From IMG/VR virus record IMGVR_UViG_3300037247_001786, positions 384,001-448,000 of that record: DNA of 64,000 nt; one strand, written 5' to 3'. Source of the stretch: a virus (Duplodnaviria; Caudoviricetes). Shown one piece after another: positions 2,230-43,031 of this stretch (positions within the stretch are counted from its first letter, which is position 1; every line of letters begins with the position of its first letter). A program made the translations under genes and the position numbers. Below the pieces are notes generated by a model, which worked only from the letters and a program-made list of their open reading frames with translations, had not been told where the DNA came from and ran no database searches.

Positions 2230-2977
2230 AATAATGTATTTATGTAAAATATCAAAAAGAGAAGTATGTAGGAATGGTAATTGCAAGGACACGGTAGTAC
2301 ATGAGCTTGTGTCTTGTAGTAGCTCTCTTCTTCCAGGAAATGCAAAAAAGTGGGTTAAGAAACATTTCTCATCAGCATATAAGAACCATGTAATGAGTAC
2401 TTTCCATGCGGTTCCTGGATTTAAAGCATTGAATATATCTAACGATGATGGTAGTCCTCATAATACATATAATGGGAGAGCTACTATGTTTGATGAGTAT
2501 GGTCGTCCAGTATATATAATTGCTATTGATGTATATGCAGTTGAAGTAGTCAATTAATTTATAACGGGAAATATTATGAATGAACAAGATGATCTAGTAT
2601 TAGAAGAGATGTTAACATGAAAGTCTTTATTACAAGAGATGAAGATAGCGACGAAATATGGTTGTGGCTTAAGCCCCGCAAGGGTTCATTTAAACCAGTA
2701 ACTCTCGAAGGTTGTGATATGATCAATTTTCAACGAAGAGACAATATGAATGAAATAGATAAGTATTGTGGCTATACTAAATCTGATTTTAAAAAGAAAT
2801 TTGGAGTTCCTCTTATTAATAAGAAAACTTGCAAAAGTATCGACTTGCCAGATGATTTAGTTCTAGACAATAAATTAACATTAAGTCCTCTGATTTTTGA
2901 CTAATTTGCCAGAGTGTGATTTTTTTGATATTATGATATTGTTGAAACGAATATTATTATTATAAAAGGAATTAAGC

Positions 2978-4756
2978 ATGACAAGTCAAACAACGCAAAA
3001 ACGTCAACTCAAAATGGACCCTAACCTATTATTAGATGTTATAGGTCGGCAAGCTGGCACCCTTGATAAAGCTGTATTAGAGGGTGGGATGAACGGTATA
3101 GAGGCTATAAATGCAGTTATACAAGATAAGGGAAGTTGCGAAGATGAGGGTATCTACATTACCTTTAAAAAGGGTAGGAAAGATGTTCTTACTATACAAG
3201 ATTATGGTAAGGGTATAACTACTAAAAAAGAGATAGAAGAATTCTTTGAAACCTTTGGCACCCCTCACGCGGAAAACGAACATAAAATCTATGCTCAATT
3301 TAGAATGGGTAGAGGTCAAATGTTCAATTTCGGTCGTAATGTATGGCGTACAGGCACCTTCAAGTTAATCGTCGATATTATGCGTAATGGCTTGGAATGG
3401 GAATTAGAAGAAAACCTACCCTTTGTATCTGGTTGTCATATCGAGATAGAATTGTATGACAAGTATAAGAATAGCTGGCCCGCAAATACGGTCGATTGCC
3501 TCAAAGATGCAGTCAAGAAACAGATGGAATTTGTTTCCTCTCCTGTATACTTTAATGGGGAACAGATTAGTACCCCACCTAAAGATTTGACATGGGACGA
3601 AGAAGATGATTTCGCTTATTACAGTTTTGGCGTAGGGGATAGTCTAAAGATTTATAATCTTGGAGTCTATGTTAGAGATAACCACAGAACGAGTGGTATC
3701 ATCGTAAGTAAGCAACAGTTGAGAGTTAATTTTCCGCGTAATGACGTTATGGCTGATTGCGTAATATGGTATCATATCGAAAAAGTAGTAAAGAAAAATG
3801 TTGTTAATAGGTCGAAGAAAAAATATATCGCACTAACGAAACATGAACGTAGGGCGATACTGAAAGATATTAGAAATGGAATACAGGAGTATCAAGATGT
3901 AAAAACTTCTCGTATTTTGCAAACTGCCCAAAACAAATATATCAGTTTTAGTATGTTCTTAAAGAATAATCAGCCTTGGACTTTCGCTCATATAGGTAGT
4001 AGACAAGCCGATACCCTAATAGAGCAAGGTAGTCATGTTGTCTTTGCTAAAGAAATGATAGAGGCACTGAATTATTCTGGCGAAGAAAAAGATTTCTTTA
4101 GTTGGTTAATAAAGACCTTATTAGATGGCAATGAGAAATATGGAGAACAAAGCTGGCAACAGTATAATGATTATCCTCTCCAGTATGACTACAAAAAGAT
4201 ATTGGCAAAAGAAAAATTCTATGATAACTTCTGTCATGCTGTATCAAATATGTCAAGTAGTTGTATTACTCTCGCTCAAAACAAGCTAACAAAAGTAGAG
4301 AAAAGGGTTATACAGTCATTGACATACTATAGTTGTTGGGATGCAAGGGTTTTGCGTATGGGAGTATCTGACTCCGCTTCTGCTTGGACAGATGGACACT
4401 CTCATATAACTCTTGATAGAAAGTTTCTAAAGAGACTAAATCTAACGGTAGATAGCGATATTGTTCAACTGTTTACCGTATTAGTCCATGAATTAGCCCA
4501 CAACGACGATACCTCTAATACAGATATTCATGGAGAGGATTTCTATGAATCTTTTCACGCAATTTGTCTTAAAAACTGTTGGGGAAACCCTCTCAATAAT
4601 ATCTTGAAATTCAAGAAGTCTATGGATAGTTTGATGTCAGCAGAACGTAGAGATAAAAGGAAGAAACAAGAGGAAGATAATCTACAAAAGCAAGCTGAAA
4701 AGTTGGGCTTAACAAAAAAGACCAACATACACGATAAAGTCGCAGCCGTAGTATAA
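2978..4756 (+). CDS. GHKL (HSP90/MutL-like) ATPase with C-terminal HExxH zincin motif
   Basis: LEGGMNGIEA (Bergerat N-box-like), TIQDYGKGI (G1 box), QFRMGRGQ (G2-like); C-terminal VLVHELAH...HGEDFY. Confidence 0.75.
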   Translation: MTSQTTQKRQLKMDPNLLLDVIGRQAGTLDKAVLEGGMNGIEAINAVIQDKGSCEDEGIYITFKKGRKDVLTIQDYGKGITTKKEIEEFFETFGTPHAENEHKIYAQFRMGRGQMFNFGRNVWRTGTFKLIVDIMRNGLEWELEENLPFVSGCHIEIELYDKYKNSWPANTVDCLKDAVKKQMEFVSSPVYFNGEQISTPPKDLTWDEEDDFAYYSFGVGDSLKIYNLGVYVRDNHRTSGIIVSKQQLRVNFPRNDVMADCVIWYHIEKVVKKNVVNRSKKKYIALTKHERRAILKDIRNGIQEYQDVKTSRILQTAQNKYISFSMFLKNNQPWTFAHIGSRQADTLIEQGSHVVFAKEMIEALNYSGEEKDFFSWLIKTLLDGNEKYGEQSWQQYNDYPLQYDYKKILAKEKFYDNFCHAVSNMSSSCITLAQNKLTKVEKRVIQSLTYYSCWDARVLRMGVSDSASAWTDGHSHITLDRKFLKRLNLTVDSDIVQLFTVLVHELAHNDDTSNTDIHGEDFYESFHAICLKNCWGNPLNNILKFKKSMDSLMSAERRDKRKKQEEDNLQKQAEKLGLTKKTNIHDKVAAVV

Positions 4757-4767
4757 AAATTTTATAC

Positions 4768-4795
4768 TTGCAAGTGATTTATTATCTGTTATAAT
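4768..4795 (+). promoter_or_regulatory. Sigma70-like promoter (class II)
   Basis: TTGCAA-N16-TATAAT, with GTGATTT following the -35; sits directly upstream of element copy 4796. Confidence 0.55.
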
Positions 4796-4862
4796 TTGCC
4801 AGAGTGTAGAAAATCTAAATTTATAGTATTGTAAAATAAAGTTTAATTAAAAGGATATAGCC

Positions 4863-5165
4863 ATGTTTTCAATTTTAGCGTTTGTGCCATTTGTGCCAAC
4901 TCCATTAAGTTTTATATCGTTTCTCGTATTTGTTGCGGTAGTCATATTTTTTGTCTACCCGAAAATCAAAAACAGTAGAAAGTTAGATGACCTTACTAAA
5001 GATATTTCGTCAGATGGGTCACAAGACAAGAGTACTACTGATAGTATCATAACTGGTATCAGTAATGGAGTTGATAAGCTGAAACAGAGACAAAAGGATG
5101 TCGCCGAAACAATTAAAGACGCAAAGAAAGAGGGCGACAAGATTAAAGATGTCCTTAAAAAATAA
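4863..5165 (+). CDS. Small membrane-anchored protein
   Basis: Hydrophobic N-terminus (LSFISFLVFVAVVIFFVY), charged tail. Confidence 0.6.
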   Translation: MFSILAFVPFVPTPLSFISFLVFVAVVIFFVYPKIKNSRKLDDLTKDISSDGSQDKSTTDSIITGISNGVDKLKQRQKDVAETIKDAKKEGDKIKDVLKK

Positions 5166-5297
5166 TAACTATAACCGTAACTATAAATAAAAGGAGTAAT
5201 TGCCTATGAAGTAAAAAGTGGATTTATATTTTGTAGTATTGAAGTAAAATGTATGTAGTTTAAACAAATAAAAATTTTAAAGTAAAAGGAAAAAGTC

Positions 5298-6680
5298 ATG
5301 AACACTAAATTAACACTAACACTTATTGCAGTAGTTGTTATTATCGGTATTTTAGCATCGTTTTCAAGCGGTCTTGTCGGTAAGAACGAAGCTACCAACT
5401 GGCAGATCAAGCAGTCTATTGGCGGTAAAGTAACAATTCAGGATAAACCTGGGTATTATGTCAAGGCATTCGCTACTGTAACCACTTATCCTCGTTATGT
5501 CTCACAGCGTTGGAATGATGTGGTTGGCGATGGCGTCAATAATATCGAATCTATTCGCACCACTTTTAATGATGGCGGCACTGCTCAGATTTCGACTGAT
5601 ATTAGGTTCGCAACACCGAGTAACGAAGAAACTCGTAAAGTTTTCCATCAACAGTTTGGCGGAAATATCGAGAATGCTGTTATCGCTGTTAAGTCTCACT
5701 TGACAAACTGTATCAAAGCAAGTGGACCACTTATGTCGGCATCAGAGAATCAAGCGGCTCGTAAGGCTGAATTTACTCAGCTTGTTGAAAACCAGACAGC
5801 AGAAGGCTTGTATGGTATGGAACGTATCGAAAAGTATATCGAACTTCCTCAATCAGCCGATCAGATCGAAGCTGGCATACCACCTCGCACCGAAGCAGTT
5901 ACAGCAACAAGATTGATTTTTGACAACAACGGAATGCCAGTAGTTGCTAAAGTTTCTCCTTTGAAGACTTATGGTATCACAATTCTCCAGTTCTCAATTA
6001 CAAGTACCGTCTATGACGACGAGACTTTGGAACAGTTTGCTGCTAAGAAAGAATCTTTCCTCGCTGCCGAGAAGTCAAAGGCTGATAAGATTAAGTTTGC
6101 TCAAGCCGAAATGTCAACTGTTGCCGAGTATGCTCAAAAGATTGCCGTCGAAAAAGGTTTGGCTGATATGGAAAAGATGAAGCAGACTACTGACGCCGCG
6201 AGAGACAAAGAACTTGCCGAGATCGACGCTGCTAAAAAAGTAGCTGTTGCAGAATTTGCAAAGACCGAAGCCGAGACAGTTGCTAATATGGCATTGGCTG
6301 TTGCGGCTATCAAAAAAGAAGAGGCTTTAACTGTCGCTAATATGGGTCTTGAAGTAGCCACTATCGACGCTGACGCTGCGGAACAGAAAAAGATTGCTGT
6401 TATCGCCGAAGCCGAAGGTAAGGAAAAGGCTATTGAACTTTCTGGAGCAATTACCGAGAGAGAAGAAGTATTGGCAAGAATCCTCGCCGATAAGGATGTT
6501 CAAGTCGCATTGGCTTTGAAAGACATCAAGGCTCCATCTTTCGTTGTAACTGGCGGAAGCGGTAACGGCGGAGGTTTGCAAGGCACGATGGTTGGCATTG
6601 CTATTATGAAGGCTGCAGGAGTACTTCCAGCAAACTTTAGCATTGACAATCCGATGACATCTGTTCCAGTAGTAAAGTAA
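5298..6680 (+). CDS. SPFH / band-7 / flotillin-like membrane protein
   Basis: N-terminal TM helix, SPFH-like core (TFNDGGTAQIS...FSITSTVYD), long Ala/Glu/Lys coiled-coil flotillin-like tail. Confidence 0.8.
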   Translation: MNTKLTLTLIAVVVIIGILASFSSGLVGKNEATNWQIKQSIGGKVTIQDKPGYYVKAFATVTTYPRYVSQRWNDVVGDGVNNIESIRTTFNDGGTAQISTDIRFATPSNEETRKVFHQQFGGNIENAVIAVKSHLTNCIKASGPLMSASENQAARKAEFTQLVENQTAEGLYGMERIEKYIELPQSADQIEAGIPPRTEAVTATRLIFDNNGMPVVAKVSPLKTYGITILQFSITSTVYDDETLEQFAAKKESFLAAEKSKADKIKFAQAEMSTVAEYAQKIAVEKGLADMEKMKQTTDAARDKELAEIDAAKKVAVAEFAKTEAETVANMALAVAAIKKEEALTVANMGLEVATIDADAAEQKKIAVIAEAEGKEKAIELSGAITEREEVLARILADKDVQVALALKDIKAPSFVVTGGSGNGGGLQGTMVGIAIMKAAGVLPANFSIDNPMTSVPVVK

Positions 6681-6702
6681 TAATTATTACTTCATAGAAA
6701 AA

Positions 6703-6744
6703 GACCCCAATAGGTTATCCACTTTTCCTATTGGGGTTTTTCTT
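6703..6744 (+). terminator. Intrinsic terminator after SPFH gene
   Basis: GACCCCAATAGG...CCTATTGGGGTT stem followed by T-rich run. Confidence 0.8.
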
Positions 6745-6829
6745 TGTCTACAGGATTTGCCAGAGTGGTAAAAAATATAATTTATGGTATTATAAACGAT
6801 AACAAAATTATTTTTTGAGGATAGTTATT

Positions 6830-7654
6830 ATGAAAAAGCCACTTGGAATCATACTCTATAAGGGTAAATCTGTTATAGATGGTAAACTTATTGTAGTTGT
6901 TGCTACAGGTTTTGCCGGTAAATCAAGCAATGAGAAAACTGGAGATATGATTCAAACATGGATTTTAAGACCCGATGTACCTCCTATTATGGCAATCAAA
7001 ACAGGACATGATTTCTCTGTTTGTGGGGATTGTAAACACAAACATATCGGCTCTTGTTATGTCAACGTCGCTCACGGACCCCACAATGTTTTCTATGCCT
7101 ATCAAAACGATAGGTATGTACGGTTCGATATAGACAAGCATTCTAAACTGTTTGAAGGTCGATCAATTAGATTAGGCTCATACGGTGACCCCGCAGCAGT
7201 ACCCACTCATATATGGGAAACGGTTTGCGGTCTTACAATCGCACACACGGGTTACACGCACCAATGGAATACAAGGTTTGTAAAACCCGAATTAAAGAAT
7301 TTCTGTATGGCAAGTTGCGACAATGAAAAAGAGCAAGTAAAAGCCAAAAGTTTAGGTTGGCGTACTTTTAGAGTTAGAACAGATGTAGACCAGCCTTTAC
7401 TTGAAAACGAATTTGTATGTCCTGCAAGTATGGAATATGGACAGAAAACCTCTTGTATCAAATGCAAGGCTTGTATGGGTTTAGGAGCTAACACCAAAAA
7501 AGACCCTGTTATAGTTGTTCACGGATTAGATCATAAGATAAAGAAGTTCAACAAAGGCATGAAACTTATAGCATGGAAAGAAAAATATAGAAAAGAGTTT
7601 GATTATCCGCTTAAAAAGAAAAAAAAGCGGAAAAGAGTAATTGCCAGAGTGTAA
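6830..7654 (+). CDS. Cys-rich phage-type protein of unknown function
   Basis: SNEKTGDMIQTWIL, CGDC, IRLGSYGDPAAVP, HTGYTHQW, CPAS...C..C..C motifs; C-terminus (IARV*) is encoded by element copy 7641. Start set at the ATG after the leader. Confidence 0.65.
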   Translation: MKKPLGIILYKGKSVIDGKLIVVVATGFAGKSSNEKTGDMIQTWILRPDVPPIMAIKTGHDFSVCGDCKHKHIGSCYVNVAHGPHNVFYAYQNDRYVRFDIDKHSKLFEGRSIRLGSYGDPAAVPTHIWETVCGLTIAHTGYTHQWNTRFVKPELKNFCMASCDNEKEQVKAKSLGWRTFRVRTDVDQPLLENEFVCPASMEYGQKTSCIKCKACMGLGANTKKDPVIVVHGLDHKIKKFNKGMKLIAWKEKYRKEFDYPLKKKKKRKRVIARV

Positions 7655-7704
7655 AAAATATAAATTTATATAGTTGTTAATGATAATTTATAAGGAAAGA
7701 TATT

Positions 7705-8196
7705 ATGCATAGCTTTATTGGTATTATTACCTATGGACAGAACATAGGAGAAGCAAGAGACAAGGCAAAGAAACTATCAGACGCTATGATAGGTGAAGTA
7801 GCATACCCTTTTGACTATGGTGGGACTAGTGGCGAAACAATGTTGTTCTCTTCTCAAAAAGGAGTTAAACTTGTCGGTCAAGCTATGGAAGCGACAAAGA
7901 AACATTTCCTATATGCTATAAATATGGTGAGAGAACATCTTGAAAAATTCACAAATGAAGATATAGCCAAGAGTGAAAATATAGTATATGACGAAAAAGA
8001 TACTACATATAATACTGGTATGGCTAGACATTGGATGTTTAAAGCTGGACAGTATAAAGGAGGAGAAATCTGCTTATACGATAACGACGGAGAAGGTATT
8101 AGAACTCCAGAACATTTAGACAGAGTCTTGAAGCAATGGGATAAGCCGGTATCTGGAGAAAAGATATATGTCACTCCATTTAATATGCATTTCTAA
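7705..8196 (+). CDS. Hypothetical protein (cassette gene)
   Basis: SD + ATG after element 7641; stop 1 nt before element 8198. Confidence 0.6.
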   Translation: MHSFIGIITYGQNIGEARDKAKKLSDAMIGEVAYPFDYGGTSGETMLFSSQKGVKLVGQAMEATKKHFLYAINMVREHLEKFTNEDIAKSENIVYDEKDTTYNTGMARHWMFKAGQYKGGEICLYDNDGEGIRTPEHLDRVLKQWDKPVSGEKIYVTPFNMHF

Positions 8197-8612
8197 TTTG
8201 CCAGAGTGACAAAAATATAAACTTATAGAAGTGTTAATACTAACACTGAATAGGAGTTGTAAAATGCCATTGGGTAAAGTAATATATTTTCAGAAAAATC
8301 TTGATACGGAAGTAAAAGTCGCTATCATTATTAAAGAGGAATATGATCATGAGGGGGTATGGGGTCATATCGCTTGCGAACTTGATCATAGTCCAGATGA
8401 GGAAGAGATTAGAGTAGCAAGTGTTGACAGGAATGTTATTATTCCTTTTCCGAAAAATGAGGAAATAGATAAAAATCTAAAATACTATAAAGAAGCTAAA
8501 CATTTTCTTGATAGATTGGTGGATTTTGACACTATGTCAAAGGACGAGATAATAGCTGTATGCGATATGACAGCGATAATTGCAAGACAAGAACTTTAAT
8601 GGAGATAGAATT

Positions 8613-9002
8613 ATGAGTTATGAAACGAGTGCTAGTTACGCTGACACGGTAGAAATCGATTTTGTTAAGGCTCAATGTCCTGAAGAGTGGGAAAAATTTA
8701 ATCTTGCTTTGTTAGCTGGGGAAATTGATTTTGATGCTTTTTGTCAATGCACTTCTATTGAGGATGAATTAGATGCAGATGAGCCAGAAGCCAAAGCGAT
8801 TGATGAAGCATATGAAGCTCTTCAAGATGCTTTTAGGATAAAAGTGGCTCTTACTCTTAATATAGTCTATAACGAAAAAGACGACAGAGGTGATGAATTA
8901 GAGGGAGGCTCCTTTGCCGTCGATGGGGTTTGGGTTCTTTCCGAGGGTGGAAGAAATCATAAAGATAGTATTGAAAGACTATTTTGGACTAATGGCGGAT
9001 AA
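8613..9002 (+). CDS. Acidic hypothetical protein
   Basis: GGAG SD then ATG 8613; D/E-rich (IEDELDADEPEAKAIDEAYE). Confidence 0.6.
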   Translation: MSYETSASYADTVEIDFVKAQCPEEWEKFNLALLAGEIDFDAFCQCTSIEDELDADEPEAKAIDEAYEALQDAFRIKVALTLNIVYNEKDDRGDELEGGSFAVDGVWVLSEGGRNHKDSIERLFWTNGG

Positions 9003-9853
9003 TATGATATATCATATAAAACAATATGGTAGGATAACTGTTACTCATATAGATAGGGAGATGATCTCAGAAGAAGATATAAAAGAGATTACTCTTAAAC
9101 TAGTAAAAAAAGCTAAAGAAGCTATTAAAAAGAGTAAAATGGTTAGTGGTGCTTTTGATGTAGAAGTATGTCAAACTAACGGAGAAGTAGTTGATAGTTT
9201 TTTAAGCGGAACTTACTAATTTGCCAGAGTGGTAAAAAAAGAAAGTTATAGTAATATGAAAGCATACGATAAAAAAGAAAAGTTTCCCGAACATTGGAAG
9301 AGCGTAAGAATATTAGGAGAGATGTGTGTTGATATTGCTACTCATAGTATTTTAGGGGTAGAGTATAAATCCGATAAGAGGGCTGGTAGATATGGTTTAA
9401 GACTATCAGATAAAGATATTTTCGAGTTCTATAATCCTCATAATGACGGAGTTATGAGTCATGGGGGTACAAAGTTGGATGCTGTAATAGGAGCCGAATG
9501 TGTCTATCTAAACCACTTCATCTTTGAAAATGAAAACGAATTGTGGGCATGGGTAGCAGAGTGGGGGGGACTTACTCATTTGCAAGATATACTTGAATTA
9601 GAGGAAAAGAAAACCAAAAACAAAGAGATTCTATTCCATAATATATCCTATACTCTTAAAGATACAGATTTAGATATAGACTTTATGGAAGTAGAACAGA
9701 TTGAATATATGATAGGGCAAGGTTTCAGCGAGGGAGAACTGTCTATGACAGACCCAGATAATCCAGAAGAGACTTTTATGGGTTATTGGAAAATAGATAA
9801 CATTTGCCAGAGTTGTAAAAAAAGTATTTTATAGTAGTACAGGAGATTTTATT

Positions 9854-11164
9854 ATGGCTAATGTATTAGAACACAAGAAATTTATTTGCGTATGTTTTGG
9901 CGATACGAATAATAACAAGGTATGGCAATATACTTTATACGATGATGGTACCGCTCTAACAGAATGGGGGAGAGTCGGGAAAAAACTACAAAGTAAGATG
10001 ACAACCGAATCTAAAGCCCTTGCCAAAATGAGGGAAAAGACAAGAGTAAATAACAAACCAGATAAACTCTATACAGAAGTTATGGTAGCTGAGGGAGTAT
10101 CTTCGTCAAGCACTGCTGTTGTAGCGTCCTCTAATTTAAAATCTATTGCTAACAAGCAAATAGATATTAAAGACCCTACTTTGAAAGAGTTAGTAGAATT
10201 TCTTGTAAAAGAGAATATCCATAATATTATGGAAACGTCCAAAGGCTCTATCCAGTACGATACTGCATCTGCTCAATTCAAGACACCATTAGGCGTTATT
10301 CTACCTGATCAAGTTTCTGACGCGAGAGATTTATTAGACGATATGGCTGACTATGTAGTTACAGGAGATTTCAATAATAGGAAATTCGCCAGATTATTAA
10401 ATGAATATCTGCGTTTAATCCCACATGATATTGGTATGTCTAAAATCAGTCCGAAACTTATACTTCCAGATGATGACGCATTACAGACCGAGAATAACTT
10501 GTTAGATGGGCTTGACGTTTCTTTTAATGATATACAAACTGGAGCTACAAAAACTAAAACTACGAAAAAGAAAAAAGATAATACTCCTAAACTTTTCGAT
10601 GTTACTCTTGATATTGTTCGCGATAGGAAAGAGATTAGTCGTATAAAAAAGTATTTCAATGACACAAAGTTAAATATGCATGTAACGAGTGGGTATCGAG
10701 TTAAAAAGATATATGAAGTAAAGATAGGGGCAATGCACTCATCTTATGAAAAATCGGGTTTACCGATAGGTAATATTATGGAATTATGGCATGGCACTCG
10801 CTGTTCTAATTTACTTTCGATTCTCAAAAAAGGGCTAATAATACCTCCATCGCAGTCAAGCCATGTGACCGGACGGATGTTTGGTGCCGGACTTTATTTT
10901 TCTGACCAATCGACTAAGGCTCTGAATTATGCCACTAATTTTTGGAATTCTTCTGGTTCTTCAAAGCGTATTTTTATGTTCTTGTGTGACGTTGCTATGG
11001 GCAAATATCATGTTCCGTCTGGAGGTTGGGGTAGCGGTTATCCTAAAAGAGGTTTTGACTCTACTTTTGCCAAAGCAAATGTATCTTCGGTTAGGAATAA
11101 CGAAATGATAGTTTATAAGTTACCACAAGCCAATTTAAAATATCTTTTAGAATTTGAAGAATAA
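9854..11164 (+). CDS. PARP-like ADP-ribosyltransferase (WGR + PARP regulatory + catalytic domain)
   Basis: TEWGRVGK (WGR), helical middle domain (LLNEYLRLIPH...ENNLLDGL), catalytic LWHGT, FGAGLYFSDQSTKALNY, NNEMIVY (H-Y-E triad). Confidence 0.92.
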   Translation: MANVLEHKKFICVCFGDTNNNKVWQYTLYDDGTALTEWGRVGKKLQSKMTTESKALAKMREKTRVNNKPDKLYTEVMVAEGVSSSSTAVVASSNLKSIANKQIDIKDPTLKELVEFLVKENIHNIMETSKGSIQYDTASAQFKTPLGVILPDQVSDARDLLDDMADYVVTGDFNNRKFARLLNEYLRLIPHDIGMSKISPKLILPDDDALQTENNLLDGLDVSFNDIQTGATKTKTTKKKKDNTPKLFDVTLDIVRDRKEISRIKKYFNDTKLNMHVTSGYRVKKIYEVKIGAMHSSYEKSGLPIGNIMELWHGTRCSNLLSILKKGLIIPPSQSSHVTGRMFGAGLYFSDQSTKALNYATNFWNSSGSSKRIFMFLCDVAMGKYHVPSGGWGSGYPKRGFDSTFAKANVSSVRNNEMIVYKLPQANLKYLLEFEE

Positions 11165-21812: not shown

Positions 21813-21819
21813 GACAAAG

Positions 21820-33628: not shown

Positions 33629-34105
33629 ATGAAAACAGAATGTTTAGTAATCGTCGATATGCAGCCAGATTTTAAGTCTGCCAATGATAGAAAAACAATA
33701 GATAATGTTCTCATACAAATCGAAAAAGCAAGGGAACAAGATATTCCTATCTTTATTTTAGAATTTATAAATCATGGACAAACATCAGAAGAGATACAAG
33801 AGGCATTGGAGGGATATTATCAAGTATGGTTTATCGCGAAAGGCGATGACGATGGGTCAAGGGAGTTAATAACTTGTATTCAAGATAATGCGTATATTGT
33901 TAACGATTTTATCGTTTGCGGAGTTAATATATGTGCCTGTGTTTATTGGACTATTAAAGGGTTATTAAAAGATTATAAAACCAGAATAACCGTTATTAAA
34001 GATGCTTGTAATGGTAAGTGGTCACACCATATCGACAATGACCAAACTTATAATGATTATGACTTACAAGATGTTTATACAAGCGATAGAGTATCTCTTG
34101 TATAA
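33629..34105 (+). CDS. Isochorismatase / nicotinamidase-like cysteine hydrolase
   Basis: LVIVDMQPDF (catalytic D), FIAKG (K), GVNICACV (C), VIKDAC. Confidence 0.8.
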   Translation: MKTECLVIVDMQPDFKSANDRKTIDNVLIQIEKAREQDIPIFILEFINHGQTSEEIQEALEGYYQVWFIAKGDDDGSRELITCIQDNAYIVNDFIVCGVNICACVYWTIKGLLKDYKTRITVIKDACNGKWSHHIDNDQTYNDYDLQDVYTSDRVSLV

Positions 34106-34169
34106 ATTGCCAGAGTAGTAAAAAATTGCTCTTATAGTATTGTAAAACAATAATATTTGGAGTAGAAAA

Positions 34170-34976: not shown

Positions 34977-35654
34977 TTTGCCAGAGTAGTAAAAAATAGG
35001 ATTTATAGTATTATGAAAGAACAACAAAAACAAAAAGTATTGAGACTTCTAAATGAAGCAAATGATATTCTCACTGACGAAATCGCTGACGACGAAGAAA
35101 TCGAAACACAAGACATATTTTGTCCTCTTGGAGAGGTTATAAGTAATGTCTATGATATTGATACAGAATAACTTTTTGGAGATAATAAAATGGCATGTAT
35201 ATATAAAAGTGAAACAGGCACTTGTTACCGTAGTACAAGTAAACATCATTGTAAATTAGTCAATAACACAGATTGCGAAAATTGCGATTTATGTCAAACA
35301 ACAAAAATAGTTAGCGATAAAACGAGAATCCAAAGAATCATAAAAGAAAGTATAGCCTTATTGAAAGAAAAGGATATAGAAGAGGCAATGCGTATTCTGA
35401 ATAAGGCTATGGAAATATAAACTTTAATTGGAGATAATAAAATGGCTATGGTTTTTACAGATAGGCAAACAGCGTTTATAGAACAAGGAATGTCTACAAT
35501 AGAAGCATCTCTTGAAAAAGATTGCGATAAAATAGATATAGTGATGCAAGAAGGTACTGAACAAAAAAGTACTATATCTCTTGATTGGGAACATGCCGAC
35601 CAACTCGGAAATTGGCTTATCGCCAGAGCAAAAGAAATGAGACTAGCCCAATAA

Positions 35655-35728
35655 TTGCCAGAGTGACAATTTTTCTATCTTATAGTATTGTAAACAATAA
35701 CAATAACTTTTTTGGAGAAAAGAAAATG
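35655..35728 (+). promoter_or_regulatory. Representative full-length cassette head (element + leader + SD + ATG)
   Basis: ttgccagagtgacaatttttctatcttatagtattgtaaacaataacaataacttttttggagaaaagaaaatg; 67/74 identical to the next copy at 35969-36042. Confidence 0.85.
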
Positions 35729-38700
35729 AGTGAAAAAACAGATGAACAAATAGTCGAAGCATTGAAATCTTTGGGTTATATACCCGTTAAAGATAAGGGA
35801 TATTTTACCGAAGGGGTTGACGCCCAACAAGTATTGTTTTATAATCCAAAGACTAAATTGGGGTTACAGGTATGGATTGCCTCACCCGGTGATCAAGATG
35901 TTTTTGATGAATATTATATGCAAGAGGTTGACGGTCAATTTGGTACGAATGTCATAGAATCCCAATAATTGCCAGAGTAGTAATTTTTCTATCTTATAGT
36001 ATTGTAAACAATAACAATAACTTTTTTGGAGACTGAAAAATGACAACGAAAACAAATGTAGAAGTTTCAAGCGATGCTCTTCACAGAGCCACAAAAATGG
36101 CACAACAAATGAAGCAAAATGTAGTCGTCTTTAAGTCAAAACTCGGTAAAAAAGATACTGAATTTTGTACTGCACAAAAAGTATGGGACGATTCAGAAGA
36201 GAAACAAGATGTAGAATTCCTCGCAATTATCGACGCAAATGGCAATTACGTCGATTAACGATATAGATTCGTCCCAATAGGCCAATGCAGGTATCAAATG
36301 TCTGGAAGCCTGGCGGGGCGTCTTATTTTTTGCCAGAGTAGTAAAAAACAACTCTTATAGTATTAACAAGGGTAAAACCCATTATATAAAATAATTTTAA
36401 CTGTTAGCCCGAAAGGATGGTGTACTCTGTTTTAATGTAAAAAAATAGATTCTTAATTAAATTGATTGTTTGTCGGTATTGCATAACCGTCATATAGGGC
36501 AAATCTGGCGGGGTTCAGGTTTGCTCTTTTTTCGCGAAAATAAATTGCCAGAGTGACAAAAAAACTGTCTTATAAAGGTATAAACAACAATAATACTTTT
36601 TGGAGATAAGAAAATGACTGAACGACATAAACTATCAGCGTATATGCAAGACAGAGGTTTTGAACTCGATACAATGACATCAATGACAGCAGGCACAACC
36701 TCTATGATAGGACACCACCGAGTAACAGAGTATGGTGAACATAACATCATAAGTGGTATCCGTTTTGTCAACTTCTCTGGCGTCGATACAAAAGAAGGCG
36801 ATCTGGGGTGCGTTACTCTGTATTATACAGGGACAACAAGAAAAAAATACCACAGGCAATCCCATGACTCCGAAATACTAAAGAAAGCGTTTTGTCCTAA
36901 AGACGCAGAAGAGGCAATAAAGATATATGATATATGGAAAGTCGAAACATATAATACAATACAATCATGGAAAGTTATTATATAATTGCCAGAGTAGTAA
37001 AAAATGGCTCTTATAGTATTGTAAAGGAAACGATAACTTTTTGGAGTAAAGAAAATGACATACGGACAAATAAAACAAGATTTATCTTCTATCAATCTTG
37101 AGGGTAAAACCAAACATCAAAAAGGCAATCACGAGATTTTAGTTAATTGGACTAAACCGTTCGCAGATGAAGCAGTTGTAGATCCACAAAATCTCAGAGA
37201 AATCCGTAAGCGGATAAAAAACATCAAGAAAAACATCGTAAAAATGAGCGAAATCACAAAGAGCAAAATCAACGCTCTCAATGACGGTATTTGCGATACT
37301 CTTTGTAGCCTTTACTCTCGTTGGCAAGAAGAAAAAGAATATGAGGATTGGGATGATTATATATCGGTAATGAAGAAAAAGTTCGAGACATTGATTGTCG
37401 ATAATAACATGACAAACGCTGTCTATTATTCTTGCGGTAAAAGACCTTTTGGCTTGACTTTCGACTTTGAGGGTCATAGAGTAACTGTATATGCTAACTC
37501 CAGTAGTTACGGTTGGAAATCGAAACCTTTATAATTGCCAGAGTAGTAAAAAAACAACCTTATAGGGTTGTAAAGAACAATAACAACCTTTTTGGAGATA
37601 ACGAAATGGTAAGACAATTAACTAAAAATCTATACGACGCTTTAATGTTTGATACTGGCCCCGGAGCGGCTGCGATAACTGACTTCGGATTAGGACATTC
37701 AGGCAGCGAACAACATACAGTACTTCAAAGAGCTGTAAGAGCAGGAGCGACAGCAGAGGAACTCGACAAAGCCCTCGGAAATGGCGAGAGAATAGCTAAA
37801 CTCGTCAAAGATTATACAGAAATCGAAACTGAATTTCATACTGCTTGGGATGACATAAGAGAGGAAACTCTAAAACAAATCAAAGAACTTGAAATAAAAA
37901 GAGTAATAACAGATGACGAAAGACTACAATTAGATGAACTATATGAAGCTATTAAAACTCTCTAACTCCAAATGAGAGGTTATTGTTGGAACTACATTCT
38001 GGTATTGCGTAAATGCCAGAGTGTAGTTTTTTATATCTTATTAAGGTATAATCAACAATAACTTTAATCGGAGATAAAATATGTTTTGCATGTTTATCAA
38101 AGTAAATACAAAATGGTACACCAGAAATATCACAAACGTCCCAACTGCCGCCGTACACGCACACGTCGCTAACGGCGAAATGGTTATTTTTATGGATGAT
38201 ATAGTGGACTTCTGCTATACCATGAAAGTAAAAATGGAAGATATTACACTGATAACAAAAATGGAAGATATTCCAAGGGAATAATTGCCAGAGTAGTAAA
38301 AAAGTGAGTTTATAGTAATGTAAACAATAACTTTTGCGGAGTAAAAATATGCGAATTATAATCGAAAATGTAAATCTATTAAAGAAGAGAATCAAAACCT
38401 TTATTAGAGCGTCCGAATACCTGTTGAAAAACAGAAAAGAGATGTATTGGTCAAGATGGGAAATGAAGAGAGGAAAAATCCAAAATGTCTCTTTAACCAA
38501 ATCAAAAAGACGGTATAAAGAACTATGGATAAATAGATATAATGAAGTATTTTATTGTCTCGAATCCAATGACTTTAGCAAAATAGATTGGATAGAGGTC
38601 AGAGATGTCCTGTATTGGTGCGGTTTCCAAATCGAAATGAAAAACGAAAAAAGCTATAAAGCATTAAGAGAGTCCAGAAAAGATATAGTAATTGCCGTCG

Positions 38701-39603
38701 CTAAAAGTCCAGAACAATTTGAAGAGAATGTGAGAATACATAGCCAGTTTATCTAAAGGTTCATGGTTATCCTTAAAACCATCGGCATCTGTTAGGGGTA
38801 AGTAGGGAGTTTATTCGACCCGAAAACCCCTCTTTTTTCGCGAAAATAATCTGCCAGAGTAGTAATTTTTCTATCTTATTAAGGTATAATCAACAATAAC
38901 TTTTTTTGGAGATAAGAAAATGATAGGCGACGGAATATTTGACAATGATGCGGATATAGAACAACATCAATTAGAACAAGCTGGAAACCGCATAGCAAGC
39001 CTAAAAAGAAAAGGAATTTGCCTTCATGGACATATAAATACTACAACTCATGAATGTTATGAATGTAAAAAGACATGGACAAGCGAAAAAGAAATGTTCG
39101 AAGAAATAGACGAGTTAGCTCTTGAATATGGGATATAGTAATCTGCCAGAGTGACAATTTTTCTATCTTATAGTATTGTAAAGAAAACAATAACTTTTTT
39201 GGAGATAAGATAATGGAATTTACAGTAACCGACAAAGGGCTTAAAATCGTAATCGTTAGCGACGGAGCCAAAGCTGTATTGCAAGAGTACCACGACGATG
39301 AAACCATAGATACAGACTCTTCAATGTACGAAATGTTCGATGATATTCTGGGAAATACAGAATTCGAGTGGATAAGTCCAGAAGAAATTGGAGCTTTAAC
39401 ATCGGCACCTATTATCGGTATTAAAGATGAAAATGATGTTGTTATCGAAGCGTATGGTTTTATGGATTACGCTATTGAATCCCTGTTAGGTCAACTATTC
39501 AAATATGGCGAAGCCTTACTGATAAAAGGATAATCGCCAGAGTGACAATTTTTCTATCTTATAGTATTGTAAAGAAAACAATAACTTTTTTGGAGACTGA
39601 AAA

Positions 39604-40014
39604 ATGGCAACTTACAAAATACCAACAACCGTAAAAATAACTACACAACGCATTAAAGATATGCTCATAACTGCTCTTGAGGGAGGGAGTGACTACTGGT
39701 TGAGGGTTAGAGTAAAAGACCTTAACAGATTATCTGAACAATTCAATAACGATCGCAATATGGAAAATCTTATATTGGCTGGGGCCAGCGTACCTATTTA
39801 CGATGCTGAAGGTCAAGATGGTCTTCTTGGACACTTGAGTATGTTAAATATCATAATGGCATTGTCGGCAATGGCTCAAGGCGAGAATATCAAAGAAGAG
39901 AAAAACGATAGGCTTAAAGAACATTTCGATAACTTCATCAATGAAAATGACGACGCGGAAACCGCCGATGTTATAGTACAGATTGCAGTTATGGAAAGTG
40001 TAGTATATGGATAA
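39604..40014 (+). CDS. Hypothetical phage-type protein
   Basis: ALEGGSDYW...DAETADVIVQIAVMESVVYG C-terminal pattern; cassette after element 39534. Confidence 0.6.
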   Translation: MATYKIPTTVKITTQRIKDMLITALEGGSDYWLRVRVKDLNRLSEQFNNDRNMENLILAGASVPIYDAEGQDGLLGHLSMLNIIMALSAMAQGENIKEEKNDRLKEHFDNFINENDDAETADVIVQIAVMESVVYG

Positions 40015-41417
40015 TCTGCCAGAGTAGTAATTTTTCTATCTTATTAAGGTATAAACAACAATAATACTTTTCGGAGATAAGAAAATGAATACTGAAAAAG
40101 TGCATATAAGCCTGATAACGTCAGGAGATACAATCTTCCACAACAACAAAGAAATGACAGTTTGCAACAAAGATATAAAACGAGGGTTTAACGGAATAAC
40201 AATTTTTGGAGATAGTTACAGATTGGGAAAAGTCCCCGTTTTACGGGTTATAATGGCAAAGATAAAAAAATGTTGTTGTGGCGAAGAAGAGTTTTTACAA
40301 GTCTTGCCAGTATTCAACAAGTATAAAGTGCATTGTGTAAACTGCGGCAATAGAAGTCAAGCCATGTCAACACCTGAAAAAACAATTGAATCATGGAATA
40401 CCTCAAACAGATTTAATAAGGATAACTGCCAGAGTGACAAAAAATCTATCTTATAGTATTGTAAAGAAAACAATAACTTTTTTGGAGATAAGAAAATGAA
40501 TAGGATTAAAATATATTTATCAAATGGAGATTCTATTGATTTGGTGTTAATAGATGATAATAATATTGATTTTACTGACCTTGATTCAATAGCCGAATAT
40601 TTTGAATATGATGGCGATAGTAGTGAAATAATAAAAGTCGAAATGTATCTTGATTAGACTAAATTTCGCGGAGATAATAAAATGCCACAAAAAACAATAA
40701 AACTAAAAGAAGCTCTTGATTTCGCTAAAAATAATAGTTATCTCTTTGCAGTATATGAGAAACAAGATGATAATTATGTACTATTCAATGAAGCGTATAT
40801 GTCAGATATTGCAGAAGATACTGATATAATAGTAAAGACAATTGGGGCAGCAACAGATTTTAACGAGTTTATAACAGCAGATAAACAATACTGTTTCAGA
40901 CTCCACAATAACTTTAATGTACCAAAAATCATACCAATAATTTCGCGAGGATAAAAATGAATGAAAAAATACGAAAAAGAGTTATTATAGTTCTAATAGG
41001 TCTTATTATCTTTATATCCGGTATGAAGACCGGCATCAGTTGGAGAGATAAAGGATGGGAAAGAGCTATAAATAGTATAAAGGTAGAGAAATGATACTTT
41101 GTACCTATAAAAGATTCTATTCAAGAGACGGAAACTCTTTTCAAGAATGCGGAACAGATAAGTTCAAAACAGATAATAAAGGGGAAGCAGACCTTGTTAT
41201 AAGTAATTGGAATAGAGTGGGAGGAAGAAAAAACCAATTAAATACATTTTATAGATATGAAATAGAGACAACTGAAGATATAGATTGGAATGTATGGGAC
41301 AATGAAGATATACCATATCGAAATGGGGGTATTTGGTAAACTGCCAGAGTGACAAAAAATTGCTCTTATAGTATTGTAAAGAACAATAATAAAAACAATA
41401 TTTTAAGGAGCAGTAAA

Positions 41418-42503
41418 ATGGACAAGGCAGCCAACTATCACAGCAAAGCAAAAGATTTCGTAAGGACCATCGCAACCGAAAAAATAGGGAATCCAGCCAA
41501 ATTTTCTATCGTTTTCGCATCCGTCGATGCCCTATCCACAAAACAGAACTTCAAAACGGGAAACTTCATAAACAAGAGCAAGTTAATCCCGGTTGAGCAA
41601 GAACCGTTAATTCGCCCATTAGTAGATAAAGTAATGGGACAATTAACAAAGAATACTGTACCTGCTTTAGCTTGTTCAGCCCATTCAATTCCTTTGGAAA
41701 AACATCTTGATATTAAAAAGGGCGAAAAACTCGACTATACCTTTTATGATATTTGCGGTAACGAAACTGTTAGAATCGCAAGATGGTTCTATCTCTATCA
41801 AGAATATCTTGAAAATGGGATGCGTCTGCCGATGACAATTCAGGTCGGAAGTAAAAGAGGTTTTGGATATAGTTATGATGCTGTCAATAATGCGACAAAT
41901 GGTAACTTTAACTCTTTTGTCCACAATCTTTTAAGAAAACAAGGTACCGAAATAACTCTTTTGAGTAGCTCAATTTCACCTGCAGCTTGGGAAAGCCTAT
42001 ATGCTCAAATCTATCTGATTTATTGCTCAATGCCAAGCAAGGAAATCGAGTTTAAGAGTATCCATATCTATAACAACGCCGATATTGTAGATAGGGAAGA
42101 GGGGCAAATTGGGAAACTTGCTGAGGATATGGCTATGATAGATATGGTTATTCACGACAGAGAAGAGCTTGATACCGTTATCTTGAGCAAGTTAAAAAAG
42201 ATAGTCAACTGCTACAATGAACTAATCAGCGATAATACTGAGATAATAGAGCTGAAACATCGGGTTCGTAAAAGCAAGGCTAAAAAAATGAGGGAAAAGA
42301 AGCCAATGAAAATCTACAATCCACCTCGCTTTGTAAATGCCCACGAAATCGCCCGACATTTGGGGATATATGGCAACTATAAATCAATGGATGACGTTCC
42401 ACAAGGAAAGCAGTCATGGATTAAGATTCACGCAAAACAAAACAGTCTCGACCCGATCGTTTGCTTCAATAAGATAAAACAAAGATTGTCGAGACGGAAA
42501 TAA
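41418..42503 (+). CDS. Hypothetical protein (cassette gene)
   Basis: AAGGAG SD + ATG 41418 after element 41341. Confidence 0.65.
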   Translation: MDKAANYHSKAKDFVRTIATEKIGNPAKFSIVFASVDALSTKQNFKTGNFINKSKLIPVEQEPLIRPLVDKVMGQLTKNTVPALACSAHSIPLEKHLDIKKGEKLDYTFYDICGNETVRIARWFYLYQEYLENGMRLPMTIQVGSKRGFGYSYDAVNNATNGNFNSFVHNLLRKQGTEITLLSSSISPAAWESLYAQIYLIYCSMPSKEIEFKSIHIYNNADIVDREEGQIGKLAEDMAMIDMVIHDREELDTVILSKLKKIVNCYNELISDNTEIIELKHRVRKSKAKKMREKKPMKIYNPPRFVNAHEIARHLGIYGNYKSMDDVPQGKQSWIKIHAKQNSLDPIVCFNKIKQRLSRRK

Positions 42504-43031
42504 CACAATAAAAAAGAGAGAGAGCCTCCAGAAATGGGGGCTTTTTTTTCGCGAAAAATTGAGTGCCAGAGTGCCAATTTTTCTATCTTATTAAGGTATA
42601 AACAACAATAACTTTTGGAGATAAAAAAATGAAAATCAAAACAAAAGAAGTCGGCAAAATAATGGCAATTGAAGACAGAGATTGTACTATTATTAAATGG
42701 ACAAAAGATGTCGTCTTGGACGTTATAAAATTCGATAAAACAGGAGAAGACCACGACCCCGCCGATGATAAAGTATTCAAACAAGGGGAACACACTCTTG
42801 TTAAAAACCTTGAGGAATTTGATAAGGAATCAGTCGAACTAGACTTTATGGATGGGACAAGTTGCCTTTATATATCTAAAGATTCTTTCAGCGTCCCGCT
42901 AATGATTCGATTAAATCAAGAGGAAACCGATATTACCCTCAATAATGTACCTGAATGGGTATCGTAATCCGCCAGAGTGCCCTTTTTTCTATCTTATAGT
43001 ATTATAAAGAATAACTTTTGGAGATAAAAAA

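What the first reader, a model, noticed from the sequence alone, without database searches (positions are those of the whole stretch)
2904..42978. The element supplies the stop codon of the upstream gene in several frames
Seen: at least 23 ORFs stop 0-2 nt before the element (e.g. 2904/2906, 8196/8198, 29096/29097, 35654/35655, 39533/39534), so TAA looks like part of the consensus TAAT-TTGCC. Another 14 ORFs read into the element and end on it. Six end LPE* (24140, 27799, 28143, 30103, 31996, 33343) and one TPE* (29710); others end IARV* (7654), CQS... (9834, 15816, 27411, 40456), LPECEKK* (12717) or FARVKK... (19698). Inference: unrelated genes were joined at the element's 5' edge, which provides a built-in terminator of translation, as expected of a cassette junction. 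A promoter evolving independently in intergenic space would not force this.
Basis: partly seen in the sequence, partly recalled or inferred. Interest (0 to 1): 0.8.

Follow-up and report, generated by a model that had tools for sequence, protein, structure and literature searches.

The report
Gene stops packed against phage promoters
In a 461-kb uncultured marine phage, about 78 copies of one phage-specific promoter each head a small gene, and the preceding gene ends exactly at, or a few codons inside, the promoter; this is a denser, non-standard variant of the "PeSL" promoter cassettes already known from T4-like phages, not a new kind of system.

Summary
The window holds 63 same-strand copies of wAw-TTGCCAGAGTr-N14-TTATAG (77 on the + strand of the genome, plus one isolated copy on the other strand). 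In 29 of the 63 the upstream ORF stops 0-4 nt before the element, 17 of them as TAAT|TTGCC. The phasing is far beyond chance (p about 1e-18) and is absent from the genome's second, sigma70-like promoter class.

Abutting stops are the genes' own. Orthologues in three related phages keep the same C-termini and abut their lineage-specific boxes (CCAGAGG, CCAGTCG, CCAGAC). Only A(-2) and W(-1) belong to this phage's element. Stops inside the element are no more frequent than its AT-rich composition predicts (55% against 66±5% in shuffles).

The cassette view is supported. Relatives share a collinear backbone, but single-gene units have been moved, gained or lost, and the elements are mosaics.

Best reading: a promoter plus leader, possibly read through the phage's FliA-like sigma, with a hard 5' edge, at least 15 apparently leaderless genes, and PeSL-like recombinational shuffling. 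This scan has reported PeSL-like arrays before on other DNA.

The parts
1916..43580 (+). In-window part of the array: 63 copies of the element wAw-TTGCCAGAGT[G/A]-N14(A- or T-tract)-TTATAG..T-R-T, each followed by 1-3 small genes. The array starts 44 kb upstream of the window.
2902..2916 (+). Abutting junction of type -1: TAA (2902-2904), T, then TTGCCAGAGTG (2906-2916). This is the commonest class (17 in the window).
29094..29107 (+). Abutting junction of type 0: TAA directly followed by TTGCCAGAGTG (6 in the window).
34103..34117 (+). Stop of gene 33629-34105 (...VSLV*) abutting the element at 34107. The orthologue in REL1 ends ...VSLV* TAG|CTCCAGAGG.
34170..34988 (+). Radical-SAM gene whose native TAA (34974-34976) abuts the element at 34978. 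Its orthologues abut the lineage-specific box in L168 and L174 and a degenerate box copy in REL1. Protein length is typical of the family.
39604..40026 (+). Cassette that sits elsewhere in relative REL1. The junction GGATAA-TCT-[G/C]CCAGAG is conserved in both phages.
24129..24140 (+). Read-in, frame 0: TTG CCA GAG TGA gives ...LPE* (244-aa protein with no homologue outside this phage and one longer paralogue at 5298-6680).
31985..31996 (+). Read-in LPE* of gene 31706-31996. Its orthologue in REL1 also reads into its own box (ACT CCA GAG TAA gives TPE*).
40426..40456 (+). Read-in, frame 1: C-Q-S-D-K-K-S-I-L*, stopped by the TAG of TTATAG. The protein fuses two domains that are separate genes in L168, and its tail does not match the homologue's tail.
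7641..7654 (+). Read-in, frame 2: ...V-I-A-R-V*. Homologues from phages without the element end 12-21 aa after the VHG motif; this protein carries a 41-aa K-rich tail.
19640..19698 (+). Longest read-in (+59): gene 18934-19698 runs through the whole promoter.
32825..32862 (+). Leaderless-type unit with ATG at element position 35 (32860). The same start codon (MRRLN / MRVLN) sits behind a 40-nt leader with an SD in L168.
34978..35015 (+). Another leaderless-type unit (ATG at 35013). There are at least 15 such units in the genome, all at offset 35.
4768..4806 (+). Class A (sigma70-like) promoter TTGCAAGTGATT-N10-TATAAT whose -10 box supplies the TAAT in front of the class B element at 4796.
33520..33572 (+). 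Terminator hairpin, then the palindrome TTTTTTCGCGAAAATAAA, then the element. This module recurs before elements 1916, 30809, 33562, 36545, 38851 and 42563 and carries a TAA (TGA at 42563) that no ORF of at least 25 aa was found to use.
37988..38030 (+). 19-bp hairpin whose 3' arm is the box of element 38013, followed by the T-tract of the spacer: an overlapping terminator and promoter.
30092..30135 (+). Degenerate element with an intact box and A-tract but no standard TTATAG, apparently through an internal deletion (my reading). Contigs from related strains continue with a standard -10/leader instead.
31292..31334 (+). Half-box TTGCCAGCGTA 32 nt upstream of the full element at 31324.

Best explanation
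The element is a phage-specific promoter fused to a 5' leader, repeated about 78 times to drive an 88-kb array of one- to three-gene units of small accessory genes.

Anatomy. A box (core CCAGAGT, here TTGCCAGAGTr) lies a fixed 14 nt (an A- or T-tract spacer) upstream of TTATAG. Transcription most likely starts at element position 33-35. Either a conserved leader with a hairpin and GGAG follows, or the ATG sits at position 35 (leaderless).

Who reads it. The box changes in concert between related phages, so a phage-encoded specificity factor most likely reads it. The candidate is the phage's 281-aa FliA-like sigma factor, whose own gene sits behind a host-type promoter.

The stop geometry. The promoter needs no upstream spacer and has a hard 5' edge whose last two positions are A and T/A. 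Upstream genes are therefore packed against it with their own TAA overlapping that fringe (TAAT|TTGCC or TAA|TTGCC). A gene without a stop of its own runs 4-19 codons into the promoter and ends on incidental stops (TGA/TAG after GAG; the TAG of TTATAG).

Shuffling. Gene plus stop plus box is inherited as a unit. Units are shuffled, gained and lost by homologous recombination between the 45-90-nt elements, as described for PeSL cassettes.

Shown: the geometry, the statistics, conservation in relatives, rearranged order, mosaic elements. Inferred: promoter function, the TSS, the sigma assignment and the recombination mechanism.
For: Promoter reading:
- All but one of the copies lie on one strand, each at a fixed distance from an SD and ATG.
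- The spacer carries A5-6 or T5-6 interchangeably, which is symmetric for DNA but not for RNA.
- At least 15 ORFs of 42-228 aa start with an ATG at exactly position 35. One of these start codons is conserved in a relative where it follows a leader with an SD.
- The same offset holds leaderless ATGs in REL1; in L168 and L174 the offset is one nt shorter.
- The element is not sigma70-like: the consensus scan finds no enrichment (87 against 79 +/- 9) and does not pick the elements. TTG is not conserved in relatives.
- The phage encodes a sigma factor with regions 2-4, part of a large FliA-annotated family that includes members on large contigs. Its gene follows a class-A-like promoter.

Hard edge and native stops:
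- 19 of 68 stops fall at offset -1 (p = 2.5e-18).
- Class A promoters of the same genome show a broad -13..+5 spread (Fisher p = 0.0012-0.0026).
- A(-2) occurs in 64 of 77 copies and W(-1) in 75 of 77, including copies with no abutting gene.
- The abutting stop is TAA in 29 of 32 cases, against 69% genome-wide (p = 0.0085).
- Orthologues keep their C-termini and abut the CCAGAGG, CCAGTCG or CCAGAC boxes.

Shuffling:
- REL1 shares 17 genes with window 21-43.5 kb, in a collinear backbone with at least 6 displaced cassettes and many unshared ones. The element-free flank at 49-57 kb is strictly collinear.
- All combinations of box variant, tract type and leader type occur.
- Element pairs share 68-94 nt at 87-96% identity.
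- 85-88% of related-strain contigs that touch the array run on into unlike sequence.
- An independent JGI contig is 100% identical over 12.5 kb, which argues against an assembly artefact.
Against: - No transcript data exist, so neither the TSS nor promoter activity is shown.
- With a TSS at 33-35 the TTATAG lies at -10..-5, an unusual geometry for any known sigma. The sigma assignment is a guess, and a divergent phage RNA polymerase cannot be excluded. Pfam searches for beta-subunit and T7-type polymerases were negative, but the T7-family search rang in no control genome either.
- Recombination at the elements is inferred from mosaicism and rearranged order at 33-75% protein identity. No breakpoint was mapped to the nucleotide.
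- Concerted change of the box could come from selection by a co-evolving factor alone.
- In relative L174, TAAT precedes the box in about 24 of 27 copies even where it is not used as a stop. In that lineage, at least, a TAA does look built into the element.
- The one-nucleotide sharpness of the -1 peak is not obviously explained by selection for compactness.
Confidence: 0.7

Rival explanations
1. Pure compaction. The element is only a promoter. Deletion bias has removed every spare base between each stop and the first constrained promoter base, and recombination at the element plays no part in the pattern.
For: The genome is compact elsewhere too: class A promoters also sit within about 10 nt of upstream stops. 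Stops are native to the genes. In-element stops are at composition level.
Against: This does not explain the mosaic elements. It does not explain the high cassette turnover confined to the element-bearing region while the flank stays collinear. It does not explain why a moved cassette keeps its junction sequence (39604-40014), or the one-nucleotide sharpness of the -1 peak.
Confidence: 0.2
2. Integron-like cassette system. The box is a recombination site (attC-like) recognised by a site-specific recombinase, and its 5' edge, with a built-in stop, is the cassette boundary. This is essentially the first reader's strong version.
For: A uniform orientation with a single-gene periodicity. A hard 5' edge. 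TAAT is nearly invariant before the box in L174. Upstream ORFs show a frame bias of 32:18:9 (p = 0.001). There are empty units of 92 nt with inverted box copies at genome 368.26-368.45 kb.
Against: No tyrosine recombinase is found in the genome, while all 14 controls ring. The element does not fold into an attC-like hairpin (z = -0.5 to -1.3). Every unit carries its own promoter and leader, unlike integron cassettes. Orthologous C-termini are conserved across lineages, so the stops are not supplied by the site.
Confidence: 0.05
3. RNA-level signal. The array is transcribed as long polycistronic RNAs, and the box is an intercistronic processing or ribosome-release signal, not a promoter part.
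For: Few terminators lie within the array, about 3 to 6 clear ones on the + strand in 20 kb, so read-through RNAs containing the box are likely. Inverted copies of the box exist at two loci.
Against: The A-tract/T-tract interchange in the spacer makes sense for DNA, not for RNA. A leaderless ATG at a fixed offset requires initiation within the element. The box has no conserved pairing partner within the element. There is no Rfam hit.
Confidence: 0.05

Closest known systems
PeSL (promoter-early stem-loop) regulatory cassettes of T4-like phages RB49/phi1, PST/T4 and nt-1/KVP40 (Arbiol et al. 2010, PMC2839356; Comeau et al. 2014, PMC4122927)
   Same: A repeated composite module (AT-rich edge, promoter, SD, ATG) stands in front of small, mostly unknown genes in a hyperplastic region. 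Neighbouring copies are alike enough to recombine. Related phages differ by insertion, deletion, replacement and displacement of single ORFs next to the modules. Degraded half copies occur near such places.
   Different: The promoter here is not sigma70-like, and its box is lineage-specific (CCAGAGT, CCAGAGG, CCAGTCG, CCAGAC). Only about 7 of the 63 in-window copies have a stem-loop or terminator in front. The copy number is much higher (about 78 in one block). About a fifth of the units are leaderless. Upstream stops are phased to the nucleotide against the element. No mini-circles or mapped crossovers are available here.
Integron / superintegron cassette arrays (IntI, attI, attC)
   Same: Long same-strand arrays of single-gene units separated by one repeated element that begins at or overlaps the stop codon of the preceding ORF.
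   Different: No integrase was found. The repeat has no attC-like palindromic fold. Each unit has its own promoter and leader. The repeat sits functionally in front of the next gene, not behind the previous one.
T4 middle promoters (MotA box plus -10) and other phage-specified promoter classes (e.g. SPO1 gp28, T4 gp55)
   Same: A phage-specific upstream box replaces the host -35 and defines a temporal class read by modified host RNA polymerase. Comeau et al. also describe PmSLs built on Mot-box promoters.
   Different: The box sequence, its distance to the -10-like element and the apparent TSS position are different. The factor is unidentified, and no MotA/AsiA homologues were looked for.

Membership tests
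PeSL cassettes | Repeated composite regulatory module (AT-rich edge, promoter, SD, start codon) before small ORFs in a variable genome region | tested here: met
   77 + strand copies in 88 kb, each 48-79 nt before an SD-led ATG or 35 nt before a leaderless ATG
PeSL cassettes | Sigma70-like promoter (-35 and -10 hexamers, N17) | tested here: not met
   The TTGCCA to TATAGT spacing is 20. TTG is not conserved in relatives. The sigma70 scan shows no enrichment.
PeSL cassettes | Stem-loop or terminator immediately upstream of the promoter | tested here: not met
   Only about 7 of 63 window copies (1916, 30809, 33562, 36545, 38013, 38851, 42563) have one
PeSL cassettes | Indels, replacements and displacements between related phages lie at the modules | tested here: met
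   REL1, L168 and L174 against the window: a collinear backbone with displaced or unshared single-gene units, and an element-free flank that stays collinear. Resolution is only at gene level.
PeSL cassettes | Recombination between copies (mini-circles, mapped crossovers) | tested here: inconclusive
   Indirect evidence only: mosaic elements with all four combinations of variant states and 68-94-nt identity tracts. The joints in related-strain contigs have short sides and are ambiguous.
Integron cassette array | Integron integrase (tyrosine recombinase) in the genome | tested here: not met
   PF00589 gives no hit in the 461-kb genome, while all 14 controls ring
Integron cassette array | attC-type imperfect palindrome that folds as a single strand | tested here: not met
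   DNA folds of four elements give z = -0.5 to -1.3; only a small leader hairpin forms
Integron cassette array | Promoterless cassettes expressed from a common Pc | tested here: not met
   Each unit carries the promoter-like element and its own leader
Leaderless mRNAs | Start codon at the transcript 5' end, with no SD | tested here: inconclusive
   ATG at fixed offset 35 in at least 15 units, with ORFs of 42-228 aa and no SD. The N-terminus is conserved in relatives. The TSS has not been measured.

The most novel reading that the evidence does not exclude
The CCAG-box element may be more than a promoter. It may be a dedicated cassette-capture and exchange site with a defined 5' boundary carrying a built-in TAA (nearly invariant TAAT in lineage L174). 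It would be read by a lineage-specific phage factor that couples expression with mobilisation of single genes across a widespread clade of huge marine phages. The inverted box pairs and empty 92-nt units at genome 368.3 kb could be its control or donor site.
Probability: 0.1. Interest if true: 0.75.

Novelty: new variant of a known kind. Interest (0 to 1): 0.38.

Why it matters
The result shows how a huge phage organises about 90 kb of accessory genes. One private promoter class is stamped in front of nearly every gene, with no spare base between one gene's stop and the next gene's promoter.

The box changes in concert between related phages while gene-to-box junctions stay put. This is a clean natural example of concerted evolution of a regulatory element with its presumed reader. 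It also extends PeSL-type modular shuffling from host-type promoters of T4-like phages to a phage-specific promoter class in uncultured jumbo phages.

For annotation, C-terminal tails such as LPE*, CQS…* and ARV* are promoter-encoded. ATGs at offset 35 are genuine starts without an SD.

The stop-codon detail is mostly a consequence of packing, not a designed translation terminator.

Tried and rejected
- Megablast of 6 kb of the array against named phages: no match.
- The DnaE-like polymerase is only about 31% identical to named phages.
- The search for related loci with the 384-aa array protein found no relative.
- The nearest IMG/VR relative by polymerase (45% identity, 68-kb fragment) has two box-like strings that are not elements.
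- The 244-aa LPE* protein has no homologue outside this phage, so its C-terminus could not be tested. Its 460-aa paralogue aligns to within 6 residues of the element-encoded end, which fits either truncation at the element or domain gain.
- Pfam gave nothing for nine of ten read-in or array proteins.
- No RNA holder was listed among the sequencing runs.
- The read laying joints between elements in runs X2-X5 have sides of 20-83 nt (most 20-43) at 80% likeness. They mostly reflect repeat cross-matching, so I did not use them as crossovers.
- Rfam finds only four tRNAs.
- The two promoter-to-terminator units without an ORF (33332-33562 and 36330-36545) fold no better than shuffles (z = -1.7 and -1.4).
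- The 226-aa ORF behind the inverted box pairs has no Pfam hit.
- The sigma-r4 protein beside the array in L174 has no homologue in this genome.
- I considered and rejected reading TTGCCA as a -35 hexamer, because the spacing to TATAGT is 20 and TTG is not conserved in relatives.
- I considered and rejected sigma54, because there is no TGGCAC upstream.
- I considered and rejected a T7-like promoter, because the conserved blocks are 15 nt apart and the Pfam search for a T7-type polymerase found nothing. That search rang in no control genome either, so it is weak evidence.


Full report
WHAT IS THERE

The window is bases 384,001-448,000 of a 460,978-bp virus record with direct terminal repeats and 34% GC. 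The DNA was found in a marine-sediment metagenome. The core TTGCCAGAGTG gives 77 hits in the window at up to 2 mismatches, against 9.8 +/- 3 in shuffles.

After filtering there are 63 true + strand copies in the window and 77 in the genome, confined to genome 339,990-427,507. One more copy lies on the other strand at 42,788.

The alignment of all copies gives this anatomy:
- Positions -4..-1 read t-w-A-W (A at -2 in 64 of 77; A or T at -1 in 75 of 77).
- Positions 0-10 read TTGCCAGAGT[G/A], with GCCAGAGT invariant.
- A 14-nt spacer follows, carrying either A5-6 or T5-6.
- Positions 25-30 read TTATAG, followed by conserved A32, T34, R35 and T36.
- After that comes either a leader with a small hairpin, GGAG and an ATG 48-79 nt from the element start (a few units lie further out), or an ATG at exactly position 35.

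An independent JGI contig is 100% identical over window 27,629-40,105, so the arrangement is not an assembly accident.

CHECKING THE OBSERVATION

I took the longest ORF of at least 40 codons ending near each element. In the window, 29 of 63 stop 0-4 nt before the element: 17 at offset -1 (TAAT|TTGCC), 6 at offset 0 (TAA|TTGCC), 4 at -4, and one each at -2 and -3. Another 15 read in: six LPE* at +12, plus the TPE* at 29710 that the longest-ORF rule hides, then IARV*-type ends at +14/15, one at +24, four at +31 that stop on the TAG of TTATAG, and one at +59. The remaining stops lie 10-196 nt upstream, usually with a terminator or a non-coding stretch between.

Genome-wide, 19 of 68 stops fall at the single offset -1 (binomial p = 2.5e-18).

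The genome has a second, sigma70-like promoter class (TTGAAAGTGATT-N10-TATAAT; about 36 good copies on both strands). Upstream stops there spread over -13..+5 and none is at -1. The difference from class B is significant (Fisher p = 0.0012 for the -1 peak and 0.0026 for the -4..0 range).

IS THE STOP PART OF THE ELEMENT?

I split the copies into abutting (32), read-in (16) and far (29).
- A(-2) and W(-1) persist in the non-abutting copies: A at -2 in 32 of 45, with one G or C, and no G or C at -1. These two positions belong to the element.
- T(-4)A(-3) does not persist among read-in copies.
- A stop triplet lies at -4..-1 in 15 of 45 non-abutting copies. Six of these belong to one repeated terminator module (…TTTTTTCGCGAAAATAA[A/T]). 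Without them the count is 9 of 39, against about 0.19 expected from base frequencies. That expectation is my own estimate (p = 0.54).

So in this phage the TAA is the gene's stop laid over the element's A/T fringe. This explains why 29 of 32 abutting stops are TAA, against 69% genome-wide (p = 0.0085).

The claim that the element carries stops in several frames fails a direct test. All three frames are closed within 62 nt in 55% of copies, against 66 +/- 5% of composition-shuffled copies. The TGA or TAG after GAG is present in 41 of 77 copies, and the TAG of TTATAG is the first frame-1 stop in 42 of 77. Both are ordinary by-products of an AT-rich promoter.

Upstream ORFs do favour the frame that ends at the fringe (32:18:9, p = 0.001). 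That is what selection against promoter-encoded tails would produce.

RELATIVES

Exact-pattern scans found nothing, because the box differs between relatives. Homologues of the radical-SAM gene (34170-34976) led to three related arrays:
- REL1: L171 plus L170, from a 254,630-bp ENA scaffold.
- L168: from a 47-kb JGI contig.
- L174: from an 87-kb NCBI contig.

Each is a same-strand row of small genes with the same geometry but its own box: nCT-CCAGAG[T/G] in REL1, TT-TCCAGTCG…TTTGGTAGA in L168, and TAAT-CCAGAC in L174. The leader hairpin (GTGTTAATrATAACAC) and leaderless ATGs recur in the relatives. The ATG offset equals this phage's in REL1 and is one nt shorter in L168 and L174.

In all three relatives the upstream stops pile up 1-5 nt before CCAG, and a few ORFs read in.

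Orthologous proteins end at the same residue and abut the box in each lineage:
- …QVNLF* (32563-32820 and REL1).
- …VSLV* (33629-34105 and REL1, TAA against TAG).
- …V[YF]G* with a conserved GGATAA-TCT-[G/C]CCAGAG junction (39604-40014 and REL1).
- The radical-SAM gene abuts the box in this phage, L168 and L174, and a degenerate box copy in REL1. The gene at 41091-41339 abuts it in this phage and L168, and ends 5 nt before CCAG in L174.

The radical-SAM protein has normal length (268 aa; family median 270). Abutting stops are therefore native to the genes.

For the read-in class:
- The orthologue of 31706-31996 (LPE*) in REL1 also reads into its own box (TPE*). The overlap is old and stable.
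- The tail of 40085-40456 (CQSDKKSIL*) replaces an unrelated tail seen in its L168 homologue. That protein is a fusion of two genes that are separate in L168.
- Distant homologues of 6815-7654 from phages without the element lack its 41-aa basic tail.

In L174, TAAT precedes the box in about 24 of 27 copies even where no gene uses it as a stop.

CASSETTE BEHAVIOUR

REL1 shares 17 genes with window 21-43.5 kb. Most are collinear. The homologues of 39604, 38334, 36040 and 48080, and of genes from 9-28 kb upstream of the window, sit elsewhere. Most genes of either array have no partner in the other. By contrast, the element-free flank (window 49.6-56.7 kb) is gene-for-gene collinear.

Within this genome the elements are mosaics. 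All four combinations occur for position 10 (G/A) against tract type (A/T), and for tract type against three of the four leader types; the 'a' leader needs both positions to show it. An A-tract to T-tract switch cannot arise by recurrent point mutation.

Element pairs share 68-94 nt at 87-96% identity, which should be enough for homologous recombination (the sufficiency is my judgement).

Contigs from related strains in four marine metagenomes of one study match pieces of the array at 85-99% identity. In 85-88% of them the match then runs into unlike sequence. I treat the individual joints in that output as ambiguous.

No tyrosine recombinase is encoded and the element does not fold like an attC site. 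An integron-type mechanism is therefore unlikely.

HOW IT MOST LIKELY WORKS

The element is a promoter plus leader. Several features argue for this, and against an RNA signal: the strand and distance rules, the DNA-symmetric A/T-tract, and the fixed-offset ATGs, one of which is the conserved start of a protein that has a normal leader in a relative.

It is not a sigma70 promoter.

The only candidate I found is a 281-aa sigma with regions 2-4. It belongs to a large family often annotated FliA that includes members on large contigs, and its gene sits behind a class-A-like promoter. This assignment is inference.

The stop phasing follows from a promoter that tolerates coding sequence right up to its first constrained base, and whose fringe (A, then T or A) can overlap a TAA. 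Genes without their own stop borrow incidental ones.

The units are shuffled by recombination between elements. This has been shown experimentally for PeSLs of T4-like phages, including crossovers between the -10 box and the ATG (PMC2839356; PMC4122927). Here it is inferred.

COMPARISON AND VERDICT

The closest known system is the PeSL cassette. Two defining features are met: a repeated promoter/SD module in a hyperplastic region, and rearrangements at the modules. Two are not: a sigma70-type promoter and an upstream stem-loop. Recombination itself is untested here.

I file this as a new variant of a known kind. This scan has already reported PeSL-like arrays on other phages, including one in a huge uncultured phage. 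That lowers the surprise.

The features particular to this case are:
- The private, lineage-specific promoter.
- The scale (about 78 units).
- The interchange between leaderless and leadered versions of the same gene.
- The nucleotide-sharp, clade-conserved packing of stops against the element.

The stop-codon finding is real but mostly a packing consequence.

Noticed in passing
window 9854-11164 (+): A 436-aa phage protein with WGR, PARP-regulatory and PARP-catalytic domains (PF00644, E = 2e-29): a full eukaryote-style poly(ADP-ribose) polymerase architecture inside the array.
   Followed up: no
genome 368,258-368,560 (window -15,742 to -15,440; L172): Three elements 92 nt apart with no gene between them. 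Two of them are preceded by an inverted copy of the box (CACTCTGGCA-N19/20-TGCCAGAGTG). They are followed by a class A promoter and a 226-aa ORF with no Pfam hit. This could be an operator-like control region or a set of empty cassettes.
   Followed up: partly
whole genome, e.g. window 57,224-57,255 and 4768-4795: A second promoter class, TTGAAAGTGATT-N10-TATAAT (sigma70-like, with an A-rich upstream region). About 36 good copies lie on both strands across the genome, including in front of the phage sigma gene.
   Followed up: partly
window 1898-1915, 30791-30808, 33544-33561, 36527-36544, 38833-38850, 42545-42562; also L170 about 11,440 and genome 104,060: Terminator hairpins are followed by the perfect palindrome TTTTCGCGAAAA. 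The motif is conserved in relative REL1 as well. Its function is unknown; it could be part of the terminator or a protein site.
   Followed up: no
window 33332-33562 and 36330-36545: Two promoter-to-terminator units of about 200 nt with no ORF of at least 25 aa. They may be small RNAs. Predicted folding is not better than shuffles (z = -1.7 and -1.4), and there is no Rfam hit.
   Followed up: partly
window 1418-1870 (+): A cluster of four tRNA genes (Glu-CTC, Arg-TCT, Arg-CCT, Arg-ACG), followed by a terminator and an element.
   Followed up: no
window 40085-40456 against L168 11130-11336 and 11903-12118: The 123-aa protein (weak Lar restriction-alleviation match) is a fusion of two domains that are separate genes, in the opposite order, in relative L168.
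   Followed up: partly
window 54693-56747 against REL1 28381-29028 and 29085-30512: The 684-aa protein (weak IrrE/M78 peptidase match) corresponds to two adjacent ORFs (215 and 475 aa) in the relative: a split or a fusion.
   Followed up: no
L171 5325-6470: An IS605-type OrfB/TnpB (Cas12f-like) gene sits inside the related phage's array.
   Followed up: no
window 5298-6680 and 23406-24140: Paralogues of 460 and 244 aa (27% identity over about 200 aa). The short one ends on the element-encoded LPE*, six residues after the homology stops.
   Followed up: partly
genome 42,788 (minus strand): A single isolated class B element on the other strand, 300 kb from the array, in front of a minus-strand gene.
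   Followed up: no
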